Virus record (IMG/VR): IMGVR_UViG_2645727868_000018
From: a virus
Lineage: Duplodnaviria; Heunggongvirae; Uroviricota; Caudoviricetes
Strand: one strand, 5' to 3'
Length of the DNA: 15,264 bases
Shown: piece by piece, positions 701 to 14,399 of the stretch
How positions within the stretch are numbered: position 1 is the first letter of the stretch
Layout: the number at the start of each line of letters is the position of its first letter
The notes under the pieces: generated by a model
The model's database searches: none
The model's input: only the letters and a program-made list of their open reading frames with translations
What the model was told of the DNA's origin: nothing
Position numbers and translations under genes: made by a program

Positions 701-776
<76 letters not shown>

Positions 777-829
777 GTTTAAAAGGCATCGGCGTCAGCG
801 GATGTCTGGCTGAAAGGCCTGAAGAATTT

Positions 830-903
830 GGCGCGTTAACAAAGCGGTTATGTAGCGGATTGCAAATCCGTCTAGTCCGGTTCGACTCCGGAACGCGCCT
901 CCA
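830..903 (+). tRNA. cysT: tRNA-Cys (anticodon GCA)
   Basis: 74-nt sequence GGCGCGTTAACAAAGCGGTTATGTAGCGGATTGCAAATCCG...CCGGTTCGACTCCGGAACGCGCCTCCA. Acceptor stem GGCGCGT/ACGCGCC, anticodon GCA, T-loop TTCGACT, encoded CCA. Confidence 0.95.
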
Positions 904-915
904 CTTTTTTCCCGA

Positions 916-1002
916 GCCCGGATGGTGGAATCGGTAGACACAAGGGATTTAAAATCCCTCGGCGTTCGCGCTGTGCGGGTTCAAGTCCCGCTCCGGGTAC
1001 CA
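916..1002 (+). tRNA. leuZ: tRNA-Leu (anticodon UAA), type II tRNA with long variable arm
   Basis: 87-nt sequence GCCCGGATGGTGGAATCGGTAGACACAAGGGATTTAAAATCCC...GCGGGTTCAAGTCCCGCTCCGGGTACCA. Anticodon loop TTTAAAA gives anticodon TAA; long variable arm, T-loop TTCAAGT, encoded CCA. Third member of the known glyW-cysT-leuZ operon. Confidence 0.95.
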
Positions 1003-1132: not shown

Positions 1133-2149
1133 TCATTTTCTCTGGCCACCAACTACGGGCACTACTTTAACTTTCCGGTCATATGCTGCTGTCTGTCGCG
1201 GGTTCTTATGCCCGGAAATTGCTTGCTTCTCTTCCAGGCTGCCTTCCAGATCAGAGATACCTTTTGCTTTCAGATCATGAAATGTGAAGTCTATTTGCAG
1301 ATGAGGATATTTTTCCTGTGCTGCCGCTTTGACATCACGCCAACGAGAGTTAAAACCATCACGGGTATACTTGCCACCGGTAGTTTGATGAATCACAAAC
1401 AGGCTACTGATTCCCGTTTTTAATGGCAGAGAACGAGCCAGAGCTATCGCTTTCTGCAGACGAGGCGACCAGGCTTTGATTTGCTTAACGCCGGTTTTTC
1501 CCTGACGAATGTAGATCCCGGAATCGAACAGCTGGTCTTTCTGCAATGAAAGTACATCACTCTGTCTGGCCACGCATAAGTAGGCAATCTCCATTGCTAC
1601 GCGAACAACATCAGGAGACACTTCATAAACGGCCTGATATTCTTCATCCGTAATATAACGTTCGCGAGCTTTCTCTTTAAACTGTTTAACTCCCTGACAA
1701 GGATTCCTCTGAACATAACCTCGTTCATAACCCCAACGGAATACCCGGGACATAAAGCTTTTTTCCCTGTTTGCCTGAGTTCGGCTTGATAAACCGCGTT
1801 GATCCATATAGCGCCGAATATGTTCAGGTTTGATTTTATCCGGGTCGATCTTCCCGAAGACAGGCAGAACTTTTCCGGAATATTTTGTGTAGTCTTTCCG
1901 GGTTTCGACTGCCAAATCCATAAAATCAGGGGAGGTCATGAATTGTTCCGTGAGCGCCTGAAAAGTATTTCTTTCTTTTTCGTCACCGACCGCTTTTTCA
2001 TATGCCAGCCATACGGCTGATCGTGGTGCATCCAATGCGCACAGGCGTATCGCTTTGTTATCTTTATTCCTGAATTCGTAGGCCGCTTTGCCCTGGTAAA
2101 CACGAGGCGGCATCCAGTTATCTGCTGGGTTCTTTCTCTTTCCGGCCAT
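1133..2149 (-). CDS. int: Phage tyrosine integrase (lambda Int family)
   Basis: Long minus-strand ORF. The C-terminal catalytic region FHDLKAKGISDL...ISGHKNPRQTAAYDR parallels lambda Int HELRSL...LLGHKSDTMASQYRD (His/Arg box, catalytic Tyr). Start taken at Met11 (MAGKRKNPADNW...) at 2149; the ORF-track start at 2179 is possible. Confidence 0.9.
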   Translation of the reverse strand: MAGKRKNPADNWMPPRVYQGKAAYEFRNKDNKAIRLCALDAPRSAVWLAYEKAVGDEKERNTFQALTEQFMTSPDFMDLAVETRKDYTKYSGKVLPVFGKIDPDKIKPEHIRRYMDQRGLSSRTQANREKSFMSRVFRWGYERGYVQRNPCQGVKQFKEKARERYITDEEYQAVYEVSPDVVRVAMEIAYLCVARQSDVLSLQKDQLFDSGIYIRQGKTGVKQIKAWSPRLQKAIALARSLPLKTGISSLFVIHQTTGGKYTRDGFNSRWRDVKAAAQEKYPHLQIDFTFHDLKAKGISDLEGSLEEKQAISGHKNPRQTAAYDRKVKVVPVVGGQRK

Positions 2150-2381
2150 TAAATATTGCTCCAAAATCAGGTTCATCATCTTTTCGCGTCGTCACCTCCT
2201 GTAAATTGCGAAATTTTATTGGGTTCATGAAATGGCCCCAGGTTGTTTTTGGGTGTCCGTCAGCCCTTTCCATGAAGAAAATTCCAGCCCGGCGAAGAGC
2301 CTCACATTGCTTTGATTTAAGTGGGCTTCCCGTCAGCTCGACCATTTCTTCTCTGGTGATTATGTCGTGATCGCTTTTCAT
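2118..2381 (-). CDS. xis: Excisionase-like small DNA-binding protein
   Basis: 87-aa ORF immediately upstream of and overlapping int. The segment ITREEMVELTGSPLKSKQCEALRRAGIFFMERADGHPKTTW resembles the winged-helix core of phage excisionases. The ribosome-binding site GAGGAAAGACC sits immediately before the ATG at 2381. Family assignment by eye only. Confidence 0.5.
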   Translation of the reverse strand: MKSDHDIITREEMVELTGSPLKSKQCEALRRAGIFFMERADGHPKTTWGHFMNPIKFRNLQEVTTRKDDEPDFGAIFNGRKEKEPSR

Positions 2382-5906: not shown

Positions 5907-6303
5907 AGCGACTCCTTGGTAATGTATACTCAGAGCCGATCAGCGAATATTGATCAGCTTCCATAGCGTCAGTGTCGTTGGTCTTTCCTCATCACAAGTT
6001 TGGTCACTTGTGATAAATCCGAATGGTTTGGTCGCCGTTCGGGGTAACTGGCCCGCCTTGTGCGGGTCTTTTGCTATCTAAAGGGTGCCGGTTACGTTTC
6101 CGGCGTCGTTATGTTTCCATTACGACCGTACAGGGCTGGTCAGGCCCGGGCTGGTCTTTCCTGTTTTGAGCTGGTCAGGCTCATGGTCAACGCTGGTCAG
6201 GCGTGGTACTTCCTCCGGTCTTTCCCTGGTGTCACGCTGCGGGTTTGGCCTCTCCTGTTGGGGACTCAGGCACAGCGATAAAACCTGGCTGTGTGAAAAA
6301 ATG

Positions 6304-6323
6304 GCCCATCGTGCGGACTGGGC
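6304..6323 (-). terminator. Terminator-like hairpin plus U6 on the minus strand, 3' of the tRNA-like fragment
   Basis: Minus-strand reading GCCCA-gtccgcacga-TGGGC followed by CA-TTTTTT (plus 6296-6301 is AAAAAA). Short 5-bp stem with a 10-nt loop, so only a weak candidate. Confidence 0.25.
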
Positions 6324-6344
6324 AAAGACTAAACACAGCAAATT

Positions 6345-6372
6345 GATGATGGGCGCCCGGAATCGAACCGGG
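6345..6372 (-). other. tRNA-like fragment (T-arm plus acceptor-like 3' strand) inside the leftward leader
   Basis: Minus-strand sequence CCCGG-TTCGATT-CCGGG-CGCCCAT has a perfect 5-bp T-stem and canonical T-loop. No complementary acceptor 5' strand, D-arm or CCA could be found, so it is not a complete tRNA gene. Confidence 0.3.
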
Positions 6373-6769
6373 TAACGGGCAGGGAGTTCCCGTTAAACAC
6401 CTGTTCACCACAACCGGGAGCGCACTCCGCCATTTCAAAATTTAACGACAAAGCTCAAAGTTGAGTCGATGAAGTGCGCTCTCGTGTTGTAGCCAGGACT
6501 CTTCCCTGGTGGTCACACCGTATCGCCTTGATGGTGAATCAATCGCTCATACCTGGCTGTGGCTTGCACATTCCGGCTACCTGCTATGGAGACAACGCGT
6601 TAAGGCTCCGCTTCCATCCAGACCGCTTCGACACATGTGCCATATGCCGGTGAAGTCTTTCCCTCTGTCACCGTGTTGGCGCCGACGCGCAAAATTTGGT
6701 GCCGTCTTTCCGGCTGTCAGAACGTGTTTCTGAACAACTGCCGCTGGGTAAGCGTTGTTGATGAAAGTG

Positions 6770-6798
6770 ACTTTACAATTTGTATTTGTAATGGTCAA
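6770..6798 (-). promoter_or_regulatory. Candidate leftward early promoter (pL-like) with embedded operator motif
   Basis: On the minus strand: -35 TTGACC (rc of 6793-6798), 17-bp spacer ATTACAAATACAAATTG, -10 TAAAGT (rc of 6770-6775). The spacer and flank carry the same ATTTGTA-type motif as the cI/cro operator region (ATAATTTGTA also at 6811-6820). Confidence 0.4.
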
Positions 6799-6916
6799 TG
6801 TGTTTTTAAAAAATAATTTGTAGTGAGGGGCAAAAAAATATTCACTGTGTAAAGGTGTTTTTGTGTTAGGGGAAAGTTGCATGCCAGCAGCGGCTGGCCT
6901 GGAAATTTGAACTGAA

Positions 6917-11610: not shown

Positions 11611-11831
11611 AAGAACTTTTTCTTGCATTTGTGCCCCGGTTTATTAATGACCAGATCGCACTGACTGATAATGGTGAACAATATGAAATTGCCTGCAGCA
11701 TGGTGGATGTGAATCCTGGCGAACGGTATGACGCGATGTGTGACCTGAAAATATTTACCTGGCTGGGTTGGGCTATTCCGTGTGGAGAACCAACCAATAT
11801 TCGTCCGTTTGAGAGCAGGGAGGCTGTATGA
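11607..11831 (+). CDS. Hypothetical protein (74 aa)
   Basis: ORF translationally coupled to its upstream neighbour; no family recognised. Confidence 0.4.
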   Translation: MKELFLAFVPRFINDQIALTDNGEQYEIACSMVDVNPGERYDAMCDLKIFTWLGWAIPCGEPTNIRPFESREAV

Positions 11832-12018
11832 GTGAATTGAAAATACGTCGCAAGGCAATAGCACGCGTTAAAAATCTATTACCAGTGCCTGTCAAATATC
11901 GTTTTTGTGGTGGGAATGTACGGATTGGTACGGATGTATGGTGATTGCGGAGTGACGTAAAACGAATCGTTGTGGGTGTAATATCGTCAATATCATTGGT
12001 TTCCCGGAGGGAAAGGAC

Positions 12019-12240
12019 ATGTTTGGCGATAAACTGGAGTTACCACGGAACGGGCGGATAGTGCTCTATATTTCAGATTACAAAGTAACCCGGGCTGAGG
12101 TGTTGGAACCGGAAAAACATCTGGTCACGTTACCGGACATTATTGAGTTGTATAAGCGGGTCGGATATGTGGACTTGCATCGCGATGATGTTCCCGTTGA
12201 GTGTATGGAATGTGAACACCGGAGGTTTGAAGTTGATTGA
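12019..12240 (+). CDS. Hypothetical protein (73 aa)
   Basis: SD GGAGGG 8 nt upstream of the ATG; contains the Cys/His cluster CMECEHRR; no family recognised. Confidence 0.4.
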   Translation: MFGDKLELPRNGRIVLYISDYKVTRAEVLEPEKHLVTLPDIIELYKRVGYVDLHRDDVPVECMECEHRRFEVD

Positions 12241-12241
12241 A

Positions 12242-12270
12242 TTGACTTAGAAAAAGTCCGGGGCTATAGT
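12242..12270 (+). promoter_or_regulatory. Near-consensus sigma70 promoter (TTGACT, 17 bp, TATAGT) upstream of the antirepressor leader
   Basis: Seen in sequence: -35 TTGACT at 12242-12247, 17-bp spacer, -10 TATAGT at 12265-12270. Located directly after the stop of the 73-aa ORF. Confidence 0.5.
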
Positions 12271-12330
12271 TTCCGCGCAGCCGCAAAATCGGTTGCCGGG
12301 ATTGGCGTCCCGGATATCTAAGTGACGCAT

Positions 12331-12351
12331 AGCCGCGTTAGCGGTTTTTTT
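12331..12351 (+). terminator. Short intrinsic terminator or attenuator (6-bp stem with one G-U pair, 4-nt loop, U7) about 75 nt downstream of the promoter
   Basis: AGCCGC-GTTA-GCGGTT followed by TTTTT (T-run 12345-12351). Preceded by a perfect hairpin CCGGGA-TTGGCG-TCCCGG at 12296-12313. Together with the promoter this defines a short transcript or a leader attenuator about 160 nt ahead of the antirepressor start. Confidence 0.4.
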
Positions 12352-12512
12352 ATGTGTTAGGCACGGCCACATTCGCATTATGGTGGGCTGTGTGGGGGCT
12401 TCTGTGGAAGCGCCGGGTTCACTTAGCCGGTTACGCCAACCCTGCACAGCTCACCACCAGATGATTGGCGTCGCTGGTGGTGATGAAAAAAACACTAAGT
12501 GAGGCCACTGCG

Positions 12513-13301
12513 ATGACAGTCCAAATATCTGCGGAATCCCTTTCTCCGCTACATCATAACCAACTTCCCGTCATCACTACTGAATTGCTTGCCAGTTTGT
12601 ATGGCACGGAAGTAAATGGTATCCAGCAAAACTTCAAGCGCAACATCGCCAGATTTGTCGTAGGAAAGCATTTTTTTAAGCTGGAAGGTAATGAATTACG
12701 CGACTTCAAAAACAGACTGACAGATAGTCAGTCAGTTGCTAAACATACCCGATCCCTCATTCTCTGGACAGAACGCGGCGCAGCTCGCCATGCCAAAATG
12801 CTGGAAACAGAACAGGCCTGGGAAGTTTTCGAAAAGCTGGAAGATTGTTATTTTAGCCAGCGTCCAGAGAGGCGGAGTACAACTACCGATGACCGTACTC
12901 CCTTGCGTGATGCCGTTAATATACTGGTCGGCAAGAAAGGCATGATGTATCCCGATGCCTACACCATGATTCATCAACGCTTCGCCGTCTCTCACATAGA
13001 ACAACTGTCACAGACGCAAATGTTAGAGGCGATTGAATACATCCACTGCCTGCTACTCGATGAAAATCACCCAACCATTCCAGATTTTTCTTTTATCACC
13101 ACTATCAAAAATGGAAAAGTGACCGGGATGCGCCATGTTGCCAAAGGCGAACATCTGATGACCTTTGACGCTTTCAAAGAGATCGCTGAGCGGGCAGGGT
13201 ATCTGGTGATCCACAGCGACAATCTGCGAAGTATGACACTGGATAAATTGATGGTAATGGGGAAAAAGTCGGCTATATCCGTTGCTAATTCAGCATTTTG
13301 A
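12513..13301 (+). CDS. Phage antirepressor-like protein with ORF6N-type N-terminal domain
   Basis: N-terminal region LPVITTELLASLYGTEVNGIQQNFKRNIARFVVGKHFFKLEGNELRDF matches the recalled ORF6N (antirepressor/Rha-like) pattern. Start placed at ATG 12513 (SD GTGAGG, 8-nt spacer); the ORF-track start at 12465 is a TTG inside a hairpin. Confidence 0.65.
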   Translation: MTVQISAESLSPLHHNQLPVITTELLASLYGTEVNGIQQNFKRNIARFVVGKHFFKLEGNELRDFKNRLTDSQSVAKHTRSLILWTERGAARHAKMLETEQAWEVFEKLEDCYFSQRPERRSTTTDDRTPLRDAVNILVGKKGMMYPDAYTMIHQRFAVSHIEQLSQTQMLEAIEYIHCLLLDENHPTIPDFSFITTIKNGKVTGMRHVAKGEHLMTFDAFKEIAERAGYLVIHSDNLRSMTLDKLMVMGKKSAISVANSAF

Positions 13302-13429
13302 CAGGTTGTTTGGGGCGGAAATACTCTATTTGCGCTTAAAAAGGTATTTGACCACGACCAGCACGAGACCGAATACCTCTGTCAAAGTACCGCCCATATA
13401 AAACAGTTACATATGCACTTGATGACTAA

Positions 13430-13459
13430 GCTGGCACCAGGTTAACACCTGGCGCCAGC
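13430..13459. repeat. 30-bp near-perfect palindrome GCTGGCACCAGG-TTAACA-CCTGGCGCCAGC between convergent genes
   Basis: 12-bp arms with one mismatch around a 6-nt loop, in the 174-bp gap between the antirepressor stop and the lipoprotein stop. No flanking U-tract on either strand, so not a canonical intrinsic terminator. Confidence 0.3.
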
Positions 13460-13475
13460 TTGAAGGAGACTTCAG

Positions 13476-14399
13476 TTATTGGTTTCTGAGGAAAGCGATT
13501 CTTGAAAGGGTCATTTGCGTCTGGCAGTCGACCATTTTCTTGACTTCAGCATCTGTTCCCTGCATTGAAACTTTACCGCACATAGCATCCTTAGTTTTGA
13601 TCCACTGACGCTGAGAAGGCAGCAAATCTTTTTTCTTCGCCGGGGTTAACTTGCTCCAGACGGTACTCAAATCAGAGTCGGCATTCGCAAATGCCATTCG
13701 GGACTGATCAAGGTTGTCAGCTTTTTGCGGCTGAAGTTGTGCCTGTCTCTCTATTTGCTTCTCCGCCTCATACTTAGCCTGTTCTTGCGCCCTGAGTTGC
13801 ACCTGTTGTTCCGCTTCAATTTGACTCTGTTGGGCATCCTTAGCCTGCTGGATTTTCTGCTGCTCAACGATCGGGGTGATAATGGAAAGCGATGTCAGTA
13901 AAGCGGCGCCCACTGATATCGGATTATCAGTAGAGGTTTTTACAAAAACGTTTTTCTGATCGTCGGTCGCCTGCACGGTGTAGGTGATACGTTTTGAAAA
14001 GGCGTTTGCGTTGTTCTCCAAAAACAGGCTTTCCATTTGCTTATCGAGATTACGATTAAAATTCTTTCTGTAAGCATCTGAAAGCTGGACGTACTCGTTC
14101 GCAGATAGAGTCATCGTCACGGTCCCTTCACAAGTTTTCATTGTGCTGCCCGTGTCACTTGATGTTGTGGAGATCTCAGAGATGGCTAGTTTGATCTTGT
14201 CCAGTGTGCTTCGTTTGGTCTGATTAGTGACATCAGGGTATTTATCGACCTGTTCAGAGAGTCCTTCATAAGCAGATTTTTTTAATAAATCCATGAGAGC
14301 TGACTGGGTTATTTCCGAAGAACAACCGATCTCATCTTTTTTGTTATCACAGCCTGTAAGGGCAATGGCGAGTAAGAGTACTGAGTATTTTAATCTCAT
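13476..14399 (-). CDS. Lipoprotein with C-terminal DUF1311 (LprI-like) domain and central Gln/Ala/Glu-rich coiled coil
   Basis: N-terminal signal peptide with lipobox (MRLKYSVLLLAIALTGC). C-terminus ...SQRQWIKTKDAMCGKVSMQGTDAEVKKMVDCQTQMTLSRIAFLRN fits the DUF1311 pattern recalled from memory. 307-aa ORF. Confidence 0.75.
   Translation of the reverse strand: MRLKYSVLLLAIALTGCDNKKDEIGCSSEITQSALMDLLKKSAYEGLSEQVDKYPDVTNQTKRSTLDKIKLAISEISTTSSDTGSTMKTCEGTVTMTLSANEYVQLSDAYRKNFNRNLDKQMESLFLENNANAFSKRITYTVQATDDQKNVFVKTSTDNPISVGAALLTSLSIITPIVEQQKIQQAKDAQQSQIEAEQQVQLRAQEQAKYEAEKQIERQAQLQPQKADNLDQSRMAFANADSDLSTVWSKLTPAKKKDLLPSQRQWIKTKDAMCGKVSMQGTDAEVKKMVDCQTQMTLSRIAFLRNQ

What the first reader, a model, noticed from the sequence alone, without database searches (positions are those of the whole stretch)
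12242..12351. Strong promoter followed within about 75 nt by an intrinsic terminator upstream of the antirepressor gene: candidate sRNA or attenuator
TTGACT, 17 bp, TATAGT (12242-12270) is close to consensus. The predicted transcript forms a perfect hairpin CCGGGA-TTGGCG-TCCCGG (12296-12313) and ends at a hairpin plus U7 terminator (12331-12351), well before the antirepressor start at 12513. This looks like either a small regulatory RNA gene or a conditional terminator gating antirepressor expression. Antirepressor genes in other phages are controlled by small RNAs (P22 sar, P1 c4), but this leader resembles neither as far as can be judged by eye.
Basis: seen in the sequence. Interest (0 to 1): 0.6.

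Follow-up and report, generated by a model that had tools for sequence, protein, structure and literature searches.

The report
IsrK/C4 antisense switch guarding antirepressor
The promoter-plus-terminator unit is a copy of the known prophage small RNA IsrK, the leader of a phage-P1-type antisense-RNA (C4) immunity cassette that keeps an antirepressor gene silent; it is real but ordinary, being present in about half of complete E. coli genomes.

Summary
TTGACT-17-TATAGT (12242-12270), the hairpin 12296-12313 and the hairpin+U7 terminator (12331-12351) are all present. Together they delimit a 75-nt transcript, 12277-12351.

This transcript matches Rfam isrK over its full length (80.4 bits, threshold 50). 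The leader itself also matches Rfam c4-a1b1.

The locus is therefore a P1 immI-type cassette, colinear with P1 c4-icd-ant and with the experimentally studied Gifsy-1 isrK-'orf45'-anrP. Its order is:
- promoter
- IsrK, carrying target copies a1 (TTGGCGT) and b1 (CTAAGTGA) and a leaky terminator
- C4, with a' (ACGCCAA) and b' (UCACUUAG)
- a2
- b2, overlapping the Shine-Dalgarno sequence
- an ORF6N antirepressor gene, ATG 12513

Support from 99 distinct modules in viral contigs:
- a'/a1/a2 and b'/b1/b2 co-vary three ways, giving 51 specificity combinations.
- The terminator is kept in 92 of 99 modules.
- The promoter is kept in register in 62 of 66 distinct upstream regions.

Most likely mechanism: C4 blocks ant translation at a2/b2, and terminated IsrK pairs with C4 and counteracts it. 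Expression, processing and the direction of regulation are inferred, not shown.

The claim that the leader resembles neither known system does not. This is an already known kind, of low interest.

The parts
12242..12270 (+). Sigma-70 promoter of the isrK-C4-ant operon (TTGACT, 17 bp, TATAGT). It is the positional homologue of P1 promoter P1c4 (P51b).
   Evidence: Scanned (10/12). It is conserved in register in 62 of 66 related upstream regions. It aligns with the annotated P1c4 promoter of P1 and with the Gifsy-1 isrK promoter.
12277..12351 (+). IsrK-family small RNA of 75 nt: hairpin 1 (12277-12283 with 12290-12296), hairpin 2 (12297-12301 with 12308-12312), a single-stranded spacer and the terminator.
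   Evidence: Rfam RF01394 scores 80.4 bits (gathering 50) over model positions 1-77. Covariation supports the three helices. The Gifsy-1 IsrK locus scores 79.3 bits with the same model.
12302..12308 (+). a1: TTGGCGT in the loop of hairpin 2, an exact complement of a' in C4.
   Evidence: a1 and a2 are both exact complements of a' in 95 of 99 modules across 9 a' types. It contains the Gifsy-1 nucleotides G28 and G31, whose pairing to C162/C159 was shown by compensatory mutations.
12318..12325 (+). b1: CTAAGTGA in the spacer before the terminator, an exact complement of b' in C4.
   Evidence: The longest b1 complement is at least 7 nt in 64 of 99 modules, and rarely so when C4 loops are swapped between modules.
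12331..12351 (+). Intrinsic terminator: a 6-bp stem, GUUA loop and U7. The hairpin is modest (about -8 kcal/mol), so it is probably leaky.
   Evidence: dG -8.1. A hairpin plus at least 5 T is kept at this place in 92 of 99 modules, including P1. Read-through was measured in Gifsy-1.
12376..12461 (+). C4 antisense RNA gene. The mature RNA is predicted as 12382-12458 (77 nt) by alignment to the annotated P1 c4 RNA. b' UCACUUAG (12419-12426) is in the loop of hairpin 2, and a' ACGCCAA (12433-12439) is in the 3' joint.
   Evidence: Rfam RF01695 scores 75.2 bits (gathering 45) over model positions 1-87. The P1 c4 coordinates are and the alignment. The predicted fold is -45 kcal/mol.
12465..12471 (+). 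a2: TTGGCGT, 7 nt after the predicted C4 3' end, in the ant leader.
   Evidence: It holds the same position as the annotated a2 of P1.
12495..12504 (+). b2 (CTAAGTGA, 12495-12502) overlapping the Shine-Dalgarno GAGG (12501-12504), 8 nt before the ant ATG.
   Evidence: The complement to b' is at least 7 nt in 87 of 99 modules. P1 b2 GTTAGTGA+GG is annotated as the site of translational repression of icd-ant.
12380..12502 (+). A 40-codon ORF lying over C4, at the position of Gifsy-1 'orf45'. Its ATG is the AUG of the conserved UUAUGGUGGG and its stop TGA lies inside b2. Its coding status is doubtful.
   Evidence: In Gifsy-1, orf45 translation was detected and was needed for anrP translation. Across the family the ORF from this ATG ranges from 8 to 45 codons or stays open, and is 14 codons in P1. 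No Shine-Dalgarno sequence is seen upstream.
12513..13301 (+). Antirepressor gene (262 aa, ORF6N N-terminal domain), the regulated cargo.
   Evidence: Pfam ORF6N, 8.9e-22. PHROG 4792 anti-repressor, 2.7e-163. PGAP annotates the CDS. Of 83 distinct first ORFs behind such modules, at least 61 and at most 69 carry a domain of these families (Rha 33, ORF6N 18, Bro-N 9, P22_AR_C 6, Derepression 2, AntA 1; the counts are family matches, so two-domain proteins may be counted twice).

Best explanation
The finding is the first third of a P1-immI-type antisense-RNA immunity cassette in a lambdoid prophage integrated next to tRNA-Leu (leuZ).

Proposed sequence of events:
1. A sigma-70 promoter (12242-12270) starts transcription at about 12277.
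2. Most transcripts stop at the hairpin+U7 terminator (12331-12351). This gives a 75-nt IsrK RNA that displays a copy of each C4 target site (a1 in the loop of hairpin 2, b1 in the spacer).
3. A fraction reads through and carries C4 (12376-12461), then a2, then b2 over the Shine-Dalgarno sequence, then the antirepressor ORF.
4. C4 is probably cut out of the read-through transcript as a 77-nt tRNA-like RNA. It pairs through b' and a' with b2 and a2, hides the ribosome-binding site and keeps the antirepressor untranslated, so the prophage stays repressed.
5. IsrK is the same sense as the ant leader and cannot bind it. It offers C4 a longer, nearly continuous complement: 24 bp and -33 kcal/mol as an isolated duplex, against -14.4 and -16.9 for a2 and b2 separately.
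6. IsrK therefore acts as a competitor or decoy for C4, in cis within the long transcript and in trans as the short RNA. The IsrK:C4 ratio sets whether the antirepressor is made.

Shown here: identity of all parts, their register, and family-wide covariation of the pairings.
Taken from studied homologues: read-through, trans-activation by IsrK and the a1:a' pairing (Gifsy-1); repression at a2/b2 and the 77-nt processed RNA (P1).
Inferred for this locus: expression, processing, and the direction and strength of each effect.
For: - Rfam gives three gathering-level, full-length matches in the right order: c4-a1b1 and isrK, then C4. The same triple signature is found at the Gifsy-1 isrK locus, and C4 plus c4-a1b1 at P1 immI.
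- A colinear alignment of window, Gifsy-1, P1 and Stx phage PA28 runs from the -35 to the ATG.
- Exact complementarity in the window: a' ACGCCAA with a1 and a2 TTGGCGT, and b' UCACUUAG with b1 and b2 CTAAGTGA. b2 overlaps GAGG, 8 nt before the ATG.
- Three-way covariation in 99 distinct modules from 120 viral contigs. a1 and a2 are both exact in 95 of 99 across 9 a' types. The b2 complement is at least 7 nt in 87 of 99, with 48 different cores. There are 51 (a,b) combinations. Swapping C4 loops between modules mostly gives only 4-6 nt.
- The terminator is kept in 92 of 99 modules and the promoter in register in 62 of 66. The IsrK fold is supported by covariation.
- The first ORFs downstream are mostly antirepressor-type, namely Rha, ORF6N, Bro-N, P22_AR_C, Derepression and AntA: at least 61 and at most 69 of 83, since two-domain proteins may be counted twice. 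The window ORF is an anti-repressor.
- Gifsy-1 experiments: the isrK promoter drives anrP transcription, but translation is off. IsrK in trans raises translation 139-fold. The compensatory pairs G28:C162 and G31:C159 map onto a1:a', and those nucleotides are identical in the window.
- The P1 record annotates a2 and b2 as the C4 sites that repress icd-ant translation.
Against: - There are no expression data for this locus. Neither the 75-nt RNA nor a processed C4 has been shown here.
- Whole-molecule cofolding predicts no intermolecular pairing, because both RNAs are strongly self-structured. Pairing would need loop-loop initiation, which the program cannot model.
- In Gifsy-1, constitutive co-expression of the orf45/STnc1160 (C4) region with IsrK made growth arrest stronger, not weaker. 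This does not fit a simple 'C4 represses, IsrK sponges' scheme.
- The Gifsy-1 authors explain activation through translation of orf45 rather than through relief of C4 repression.
- Unlike P1, there is no icd-like ORF between b2 and ant here.
- Whether a repressor-controlled second promoter like P1 P2c4 exists was not examined.
Confidence: 0.82

Rival explanations
1. Gifsy-1 'orf45' model taken literally. The short IsrK RNA binds the read-through mRNA, opens the ribosome-binding site of the small ORF over C4 (12380-12502), and ribosomes finishing that ORF 10 nt before the ant AUG re-initiate on ant. C4 as a free antisense RNA plays little part. This overlaps the best explanation, using the same base pairs, and differs in which step is limiting.
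For: A 40-codon ORF starts at the same conserved AUG as orf45, and its stop TGA lies inside b2, 10 nt before the ant ATG. In Gifsy-1, SPA-tagged orf45 was translated, and start or stop mutations lowered anrP activation.
Against: The ORF is not conserved in the family. From the same AUG it runs 8-45 codons or stays open, and is 14 codons in P1. The Gifsy-1 paper itself notes that the nucleotide sequence is conserved but the amino-acid sequence is not. No Shine-Dalgarno sequence precedes 12380. The region matches a structured-RNA model over its full length. In P1 the mature C4 5' end lies inside this AUG, so processing would destroy the start codon.
Confidence: 0.3
2. P4-type transcriptional immunity. 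The C4/CI-like RNA pairs with the upstream (a1/b1, seqA-like) and downstream (a2/b2, seqC-like) sites on nascent transcripts and causes premature termination. The 12331-12351 terminator would then be mainly a C4-dependent attenuator that autoregulates C4 and ant transcription.
For: The Rfam C4 and isrK models also detect P4 CI and seqA relatives (PMC10111431). The Gifsy-1 authors raise the same possibility. b1 lies only 5 nt before the terminator hairpin. IsrK in trans also raised the transcriptional fusion 8-fold in Gifsy-1.
Against: b2 overlaps the Shine-Dalgarno sequence in the window and across the family. That is the signature of translational control, as annotated in P1. The translational effect in Gifsy-1 (139-fold) far exceeds the transcriptional one (8-fold). 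The terminator has a full U7 tract and needs no helper. The element is a lambdoid prophage, not a P4-like satellite.
Confidence: 0.2
3. The RNA is mainly a trans-acting, Hfq-dependent sRNA that regulates host or other prophage mRNAs. Its position before ant would be incidental.
For: Rfam describes isrK as an Hfq-binding RNA. The RNA ends in a terminator hairpin with a U tail, which is typical of Hfq-dependent small RNAs (from general knowledge, not tested here). E. coli genomes carry up to 7 such modules, so cross-talk is possible.
Against: The variable parts of IsrK (a1, b1) co-vary with the adjacent C4 and with the ant leader, not with any fixed host sequence. No host target was sought or found here.
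Confidence: 0.08
4. Chance promoter-like sequence next to an ordinary terminator of the upstream early operon, with no dedicated small RNA.
For: Promoter-like matches in the window are no more frequent than in shuffles, 11 against 18.1. The upstream ORF ends 2 nt before the -35, so upstream transcription may also reach the terminator.
Against: There is a full-length covariance-model match. The promoter is kept in register in 62 of 66 relatives and coincides with the annotated P1 promoter P1c4 (former P51b) and with the Gifsy-1 isrK promoter, which was shown experimentally to drive the operon. The fold co-varies.
Confidence: 0.02

Closest known systems
IsrK sRNA and the isrK-orf45-anrP operon of Salmonella prophage Gifsy-1 (Rfam RF01394; Hershko-Shalev et al. 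2016, PMC4825925)
   Same: The covariance-model score is the same (80.4 bits here, 79.3 for Gifsy-1). Both have a promoter, a three-hairpin ~75-77-nt RNA with an intrinsic terminator, a C4-type region ('orf45'/STnc1160), a2, b2 over the Shine-Dalgarno sequence, and an antirepressor gene. The a specificity is identical (TTGGCGT/ACGCCAA), including the experimentally paired G28 and G31.
   Different: The b specificity differs: CTAAGTGA here against (A)TCACCG in Gifsy-1. The small ORF is 40 codons and stops 10 nt before the ant ATG, instead of overlapping it as AUGA. The upstream gene is a small phrog_340 ORF, not the Q-like antQ; Q lies about 8 kb downstream in this prophage. No isrJ follows ant. 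The antirepressor here is 262 aa against 187 aa for the annotated Gifsy-1 ORF STM2616; the two proteins were not compared directly.
immI operon of phages P1 and P7: c4 antisense RNA with sites a1, b1, a2, b2 controlling icd-ant (Rfam RF01695 and RF03163; Citron and Schuster 1990 and 1992, cited from the reference lists)
   Same: The order and spacing match: promoter, a1, b1, terminator-like hairpin with a T run, a 77-nt C4, a2 directly after C4, then b2+GG as the Shine-Dalgarno sequence about 10 nt before the ATG. Recognition uses two sites, with a' in the 3' joint and b' in the loop of hairpin 2.
   Different: The specificities differ (P1: a TTGACAG, b GTTAGTGA). There is no icd ORF, so the antirepressor starts where icd starts in P1. 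The antirepressor is a single ORF6N protein, not Ant1/Ant2. The host element is an integrated lambdoid prophage, not a plasmid prophage. The P1 leader falls below the isrK gathering score, although it matches c4-a1b1. The C1 operator and second promoter of P1 have no identified counterpart here.
P4 satellite immunity: CI RNA with seqA and seqC
   Same: The RNA families are homologous: the Rfam C4 and isrK models detect CI and seqA relatives. An upstream and a downstream copy of the target flank the regulator gene on one transcript.
   Different: P4 acts by premature transcription termination upstream of replication genes. Here b2 overlaps a ribosome-binding site of an antirepressor, and the element is a full lambdoid prophage with terminase and portal genes.
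P22 sar / ant
   Same: A small RNA controls antirepressor translation at the ribosome-binding site.
   Different: sar is transcribed from the opposite strand across the ant start. Here the regulator is encoded upstream on the same strand and acts through short dispersed sites. The E<=1 Rfam search of 11800-13700 returned no further phage RNA family, and there is no minus-strand promoter-like site near 12513.

Membership tests
isrK (Rfam RF01394) | Covariance-model match at or above the curated gathering score, over the full length | tested here: met
   80.4 bits against 50, model positions 1-77 of 77, E 3e-16. The type locus in Gifsy-1 scores 79.3.
isrK (Rfam RF01394) | Three hairpins, the last being an intrinsic terminator with a U tail, supported by covariation | tested here: met
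   87.9% of cells are paired, against 29-46% in slid controls. 11 of 18 pairs show changes on both sides. A terminator is present in 92 of 99 relatives.
isrK (Rfam RF01394) | Own sigma-70 promoter placing the 5' end at hairpin 1 | tested here: met
   TTGACT-17-TATAGT ends 6 nt before 12277. The same register is seen in 62 of 66 relatives. The promoter activity itself was not measured.
isrK (Rfam RF01394) | Lies upstream of the 'orf45'/STnc1160 region and an antirepressor gene on the same strand | tested here: met
   C4 at 12376-12461 and the ORF6N anti-repressor at 12513-13301. Colinear with Gifsy-1.
isrK (Rfam RF01394) | A stable ~77-nt RNA accumulates, binds Hfq, and activates antirepressor translation in trans | not testable with these tools
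   Needs a Northern blot or RNA-seq, Hfq co-immunoprecipitation and reporter fusions. Known only for Gifsy-1.
P1/P7 immI c4 system (Rfam RF01695 + RF03163) | C4 covariance-model match at or above the gathering score | tested here: met
   75.2 bits against 45, model positions 1-87 of 87. P1 c4 itself scores 68.8.
P1/P7 immI c4 system (Rfam RF01695 + RF03163) | Two C4 segments (a', b') complementary to a2 and b2 in the leader of the regulated gene, with b2 at the Shine-Dalgarno sequence | tested here: met
   There are 7-nt and 8-nt exact complements. With G-U pairs and flanks these reach 11 bp each (-14.4 and -16.9 kcal/mol). b2 overlaps GAGG.
P1/P7 immI c4 system (Rfam RF01695 + RF03163) | Second copies a1 and b1 upstream of c4 (c4-a1b1 motif) | tested here: met
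   RF03163 scores 52.9 bits against 46.7. a1 is at 12302-12308 and b1 at 12318-12325, both exact.
P1/P7 immI c4 system (Rfam RF01695 + RF03163) | Regulator and targets co-vary between elements of different immunity specificity | tested here: met
   There are 9 a' types and 48 b2 cores. a1 and a2 are exact in 95 of 99 modules. The b2 complement is at least 7 nt in 87 of 99, and rarely so with swapped loops.
P1/P7 immI c4 system (Rfam RF01695 + RF03163) | The regulated unit is icd followed by translationally coupled ant1/ant2 | tested here: not met
   The ATG behind b2 opens the 262-aa ORF6N antirepressor directly, with no icd-like ORF. About a quarter of related modules do have a 73-83-aa first ORF.
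P1/P7 immI c4 system (Rfam RF01695 + RF03163) | C4 is processed from the operon transcript to 77 nt (by RNase P according to the literature, recalled from memory) | not testable with these tools
   By alignment to the annotated P1 RNA the mature form would be 12382-12458, also 77 nt. No processing data exist for this locus.
P4 CI / seqA-seqC immunity | Element is a P4-like satellite, and the regulated genes are replication genes controlled by premature termination | tested here: not met
   The host element is a lambdoid prophage with cI/cro-like genes, a replicative helicase, Q, lysis genes, terminase and portal. The gene behind the sites is an antirepressor.
P22 sar | Antisense RNA transcribed from the opposite strand across the ant ribosome-binding site | tested here: not met
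   The E<=1 Rfam search of 11800-13700 returned only isrK, C4, c4-a1b1 and one chance-level snoRNA match. There is no minus-strand promoter-like site near 12513.
Lambda PR' 6S-RNA / Q-antiterminated late leader | Short terminated transcript immediately downstream of the Q gene, upstream of lysis genes | tested here: not met
   In the identical E. coli record, Q lies about 8 kb downstream of this locus and is followed by holin genes. The upstream neighbour here is a 73-aa phrog_340 ORF.

The most novel reading that the evidence does not exclude
Short IsrK is a dedicated anti-antisense RNA (a sponge) for C4, and the Gifsy-1 'orf45' is the C4 gene rather than a protein gene. On this reading the IsrK and P1-c4 literatures describe one switch whose output depends on the IsrK:C4 ratio, which is set by terminator read-through. 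The two recognition sites vary independently: at least 51 (a,b) combinations occur in 99 modules, and E. coli genomes carry up to 7 modules. They could then form a combinatorial address code. Co-resident prophages sharing one or both sites, as this prophage and Gifsy-1 share 'a', could cross-repress or cross-induce each other's antirepressors.
Probability: 0.35. Interest if true: 0.45.

Novelty: already known. Interest (0 to 1): 0.15.

Why it matters
For this window it matters mainly as annotation. PGAP leaves about 680 nt blank (11832-12512) in the identical E. coli record. The last 270 nt of that gap hold two RNA genes and four target sites that probably decide whether the prophage's antirepressor is made, and hence whether this ST131-associated prophage is induced without the classical repressor-cleavage route.

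More generally, the comparison shows that the isrK locus of Gifsy-1 and immI of P1 are the same cassette. The experimentally proven IsrK pairs are the a1:a' pairs of P1. The cassette sits in front of antirepressor-type genes in about half of complete E. coli genomes. None of this is new in kind: Rfam already holds all three models, and the link of isrK and C4 to P4 seqA and CI is in print (PMC10111431).

Tried and rejected
- Whole-molecule duplex and cofold energies did not help. RNAduplex of full IsrK or the full leader against C4 gives large energies that shuffled sequences partly reach (27 and 3 of 500). RNAcofold predicts no intermolecular pairs, because both RNAs are strongly self-folded. 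I relied on site-level complementarity and covariation instead.\n- The single-sequence MFE of IsrK (z -2.3) differs from the family consensus. It pairs the 5' AGCCGC with the terminator's 3' arm. That alternative is not conserved in relatives and was dropped.\n- The MAFFT alignment misplaces some terminator arms by 1-2 columns, so helix 3 is an underestimate. Per-sequence folding was used for the terminator.\n- I looked for an isrJ-like RNA after ant, as in Gifsy-1, and found none.\n- I tried to read the primary P1 papers (PMC312442, PMC196329, PMC523184). They are not held. P1 facts therefore rest on the GenBank annotation, on secondary sources and, where marked, on memory.\n- I considered a lambda-type PR'/Q leader, P22 sar and a P4 satellite. 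Each fails a defining feature (see the membership test).\n- The first strict promoter pattern search found only 34 of 99. The register-based scoring showed this was a pattern artefact.
Full report
**Observation.**
- TTGACT (12242-12247), a 17-bp spacer, and TATAGT (12265-12270).
- The hairpin CCGGGA/TTGGCG/TCCCGG (12296-12313).
- A terminator, AGCCGC-GTTA-GCGGTT (12331-12346), running into seven T (12345-12351).
- An antirepressor ORF whose ATG is at 12513. This start agrees with the PGAP start in an identical E. coli record and with a PHROG anti-repressor profile that aligns from residue 1.

A start 7 nt after the -10 gives a 75-nt RNA, 12277-12351. Consensus matching alone would not make this significant: promoter-like sites are no more frequent in the window than in shuffles, 11 against 18.1.

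**What it is.** An Rfam scan at curated thresholds settles the identity.
- 12277-12351 is a full-length match to isrK (RF01394; 80.4 bits, gathering score 50).
- 12264-12316 matches c4-a1b1 (RF03163; 52.9 against 46.7).
- Only 25 nt after the terminator, 12376-12461 is a full-length match to the C4 antisense RNA (RF01695; 75.2 against 45).

I compared it with the two studied systems.
- In the P1 GenBank record, the immI leader is annotated with promoter P1c4 (former P51b), sites a1 and b1, the 77-nt c4 RNA, sites a2 and b2 ("repression of icd ant translation"), then icd and ant1/ant2.
- In Gifsy-1, the region between the Q-like gene and the antirepressor-like STM2616 gives the same triple Rfam signature: isrK 79.3 bits, C4 69.0 bits and c4-a1b1 48.1 bits.

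A four-way alignment of window, Gifsy-1, P1 and Stx phage PA28 is colinear from the -35 to the start codon.

**Anatomy in the window** (coordinates checked).
- IsrK has hairpin 1 (12277-12283 with 12290-12296) and hairpin 2 (12297-12301 with 12308-12312).
- The loop of hairpin 2 carries a1, TTGGCGT (12302-12308).
- A spacer carries b1, CTAAGTGA (12318-12325), followed by the terminator.
- C4 has b', UCACUUAG (12419-12426), in the loop of its second hairpin. It has a', ACGCCAA (12433-12439), in the single-stranded joint before the closing stem. These are the same places as in P1.
- By alignment to the annotated P1 RNA, the mature C4 would be 12382-12458, again 77 nt.
- a2, TTGGCGT (12465-12471), follows at once.
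- b2, CTAAGTGA (12495-12502), overlaps the Shine-Dalgarno GAGG (12501-12504), 8 nt before the ATG.

The P1 equivalent, GTTAGTGAGGCC...ATG, is strikingly parallel. As isolated duplexes, the interaction energies are as follows.

| Pairing | Base pairs | Energy (kcal/mol) |
|---|---|---|
| C4 with a2 | 11 | -14.4 |
| C4 with b2 + Shine-Dalgarno | 11 | -16.9 |
| C4 (b'-a') with IsrK a1-b1, nearly continuous | 24 | -33.0 |

**Is it more than chance? Comparative evidence.** A pattern built only on invariant C4 stem residues retrieved 120 viral contigs. These gave 99 distinct modules with enough flank.
- The 7-nt a' occurs in 9 versions, and both a1 and a2 are its exact complement in 95 of 99 modules.
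- The b' loop is hypervariable, with 48 different b2 cores. It has a complement of at least 7 nt at the b2 position in 87 of 99 modules and at the b1 position in 64 of 99.
- Pairing a module's targets with another module's loop mostly gives 4-6 nt.
- There are 51 (a,b) combinations.
- A hairpin followed by at least five T lies between b1 and C4 in 92 of 99 modules, P1 included.
- A promoter of at least 8/12 with its -10 ending exactly 6 nt before hairpin 1 is present in 62 of 66 distinct upstream regions.
- On 46 diverse IsrK-like sequences, the three-hairpin structure is 87.9% paired against 29-46% with slid partners. It has 105 cells changed on both sides against 15-37, and no shuffle reaches the observed covariation score.
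- Of 83 distinct first ORFs behind b2, Pfam matched Rha in 33, ORF6N in 18, Bro-N in 9, P22_AR_C in 6, the Derepression family in 2 and AntA in 1. These counts are family matches, so a two-domain protein may be counted twice and between 61 and 69 of the 83 ORFs have a hit. Most of the remainder are short icd-sized ORFs.

The window's ORF is an ORF6N anti-repressor (Pfam 8.9e-22, PHROG 2.7e-163).

**Context.** The window begins with tRNA-Gly, -Cys and -Leu, followed by an integrase. The identical E. coli record shows a lambdoid prophage with the following parts: cI/cro-like genes, a replicative helicase, small nin-region ORFs, this cassette, a moron region, Q, lysis genes, terminase and portal.
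- The exact locus is in 488 of 5426 complete E. coli genomes.
- Recognisable relatives of the 244-nt cassette are in 2626 of 5426 genomes, with up to 7 copies per genome. They are usually unannotated or lie under genes labelled 'ash family protein' or 'Rha family phage regulatory protein'.

**How it most likely works.**

*Shown here:* the parts, their order, and family-wide covariation of the a and b pairings.

*Taken from Gifsy-1 (PMC4825925):*
- The isrK promoter drives the antirepressor transcript by read-through of the IsrK terminator.
- That transcript is translationally silent.
- IsrK supplied in trans raises anrP translation 139-fold and transcription 8-fold.
- The compensatory mutations G28A/C162U and G31A/C159U prove a helix between the middle of IsrK and the 3' part of 'orf45'.

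Mapping those numbers onto the Gifsy-1 sequence shows that they are the a1:a' pairs of the P1 nomenclature. The same nucleotides are present in the window.

*Taken from P1 (reviews):* C4 represses synthesis of the antirepressor by binding a2/b2 at the ribosome-binding site.

*Combined reading, which is inferred:* C4, released from read-through transcripts, occludes b2 and the Shine-Dalgarno sequence and keeps the antirepressor off. IsrK has the same sense as the ant leader and so cannot bind it. It pairs with C4's b'-a' segment, in cis within the long RNA or in trans as the short RNA, and relieves the block. The leaky terminator sets the IsrK:C4 ratio.

*Points that do not fit neatly:*
- Cofolding of the whole RNAs predicts no intermolecular pairing, so loop-loop initiation would be required.
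- In Gifsy-1, extra STnc1160/orf45 expression enhanced rather than reduced IsrK toxicity.

**Rivals.**
1. *The literal 'orf45' model.* A 40-codon ORF (12380-12502) starts at the conserved AUG and stops inside b2, 10 nt before the ant ATG, so coupling is conceivable. However, the ORF is not conserved across the family (8-45 codons or open; 14 in P1) and it lacks a Shine-Dalgarno sequence. In P1 the mature C4 5' end falls inside that AUG.
2. *P4-type control by premature termination.* The RNA families are shared and b1 abuts the terminator. Against it, b2 sits on a ribosome-binding site, the terminator has a full U tract, and the element is not a satellite.
3. *A host-directed Hfq sRNA.* This is not excluded, but the variable parts of IsrK track its own C4.
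4. *Chance.* This is excluded by the evidence above.

**Comparison with the known and novelty.** The locus meets every sequence-testable criterion for isrK and for the C4/a1b1 system. It fails only the P1-specific feature of an icd gene before ant. It is not a sar-type, lambda PR'-type or P4-satellite arrangement. It differs from Gifsy-1 in four ways:
- b specificity (CTAAGTGA against TCACCG);
- the upstream neighbour, which is not Q;
- the absence of isrJ;
- antirepressor length (262 aa here against 187 aa for the annotated Gifsy-1 ORF STM2616; the proteins were not compared directly).

All three RNA models are already in Rfam. The c4-a1b1 motif dates from 2010 (PMC2864571), and the equivalence of isrK and C4 with P4 seqA and CI is stated in PMC10111431. 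A 2025 review still lists IsrK and c4 as separate systems, so stating their identity explicitly has some tidying value, but it is not a discovery.

**Verdict.** The claim of dissimilarity to P1 c4 was wrong. The kind is already known and interest is low.

Noticed in passing
window 12019-12240 (+) and 12513-13301 (+): The 73-aa ORF whose stop abuts the isrK -35 is homologous to residues 197-238 of the antirepressor. Both hit phrog_340, and they align at 32% identity over 41 aa, E 3e-5. It looks like a free-standing copy of the antirepressor's C-terminal module just upstream of the RNA cassette.
   Followed up: partly
window 13427-13462: There is a strong 15-bp palindromic hairpin (-26.7 kcal/mol, z -6.5) between the convergent antirepressor gene and the LprI-family gene 13476-14399 (-). 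It is a likely bidirectional terminator marking the end of the isrK-C4-ant operon. The + strand has no T run.
   Followed up: partly
window about 5907-6916: About 1 kb upstream of the cI-like repressor gene has no annotated gene in the identical E. coli record. It contains a cluster of four or five terminator-like hairpins on the + strand at 6050-6158. No Rfam family matched there at gathering level.
   Followed up: no
window 701-1002 and 1133-2179 (-): tRNA-Gly, tRNA-Cys and tRNA-Leu(taa) are followed directly by a tyrosine integrase and a DUF4224 gene. This is the left end of the prophage, integrated at or next to leuZ.
   Followed up: no
L017 4677-5418 and L026 9712-10450: Two viral contigs each carry two isrK-C4 modules about 660 nt apart, with different a/b specificities. 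Each module is followed by its own Rha/antirepressor-type ORF. These appear to be tandem heteroimmune cassettes in one element.
   Followed up: no
L126 (Gifsy-1) 34131-34214 (-): The 'orf45'/STnc1160 region of the published Gifsy-1 isrK operon is a full-length Rfam C4 match at 69 bits. The paper's compensatory pairs G28:C162 and G31:C159 are the a1:a' pairs of the P1 nomenclature.
   Followed up: yes
E. coli complete genomes: Relatives of the 244-nt cassette occur in 2626 of 5426 genomes, with up to 7 places per genome; 93 of the 4569 places in all are on plasmids. PGAP usually leaves them unannotated, or they lie under genes labelled 'ash family protein' or 'Rha family phage regulatory protein'.
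   Followed up: partly
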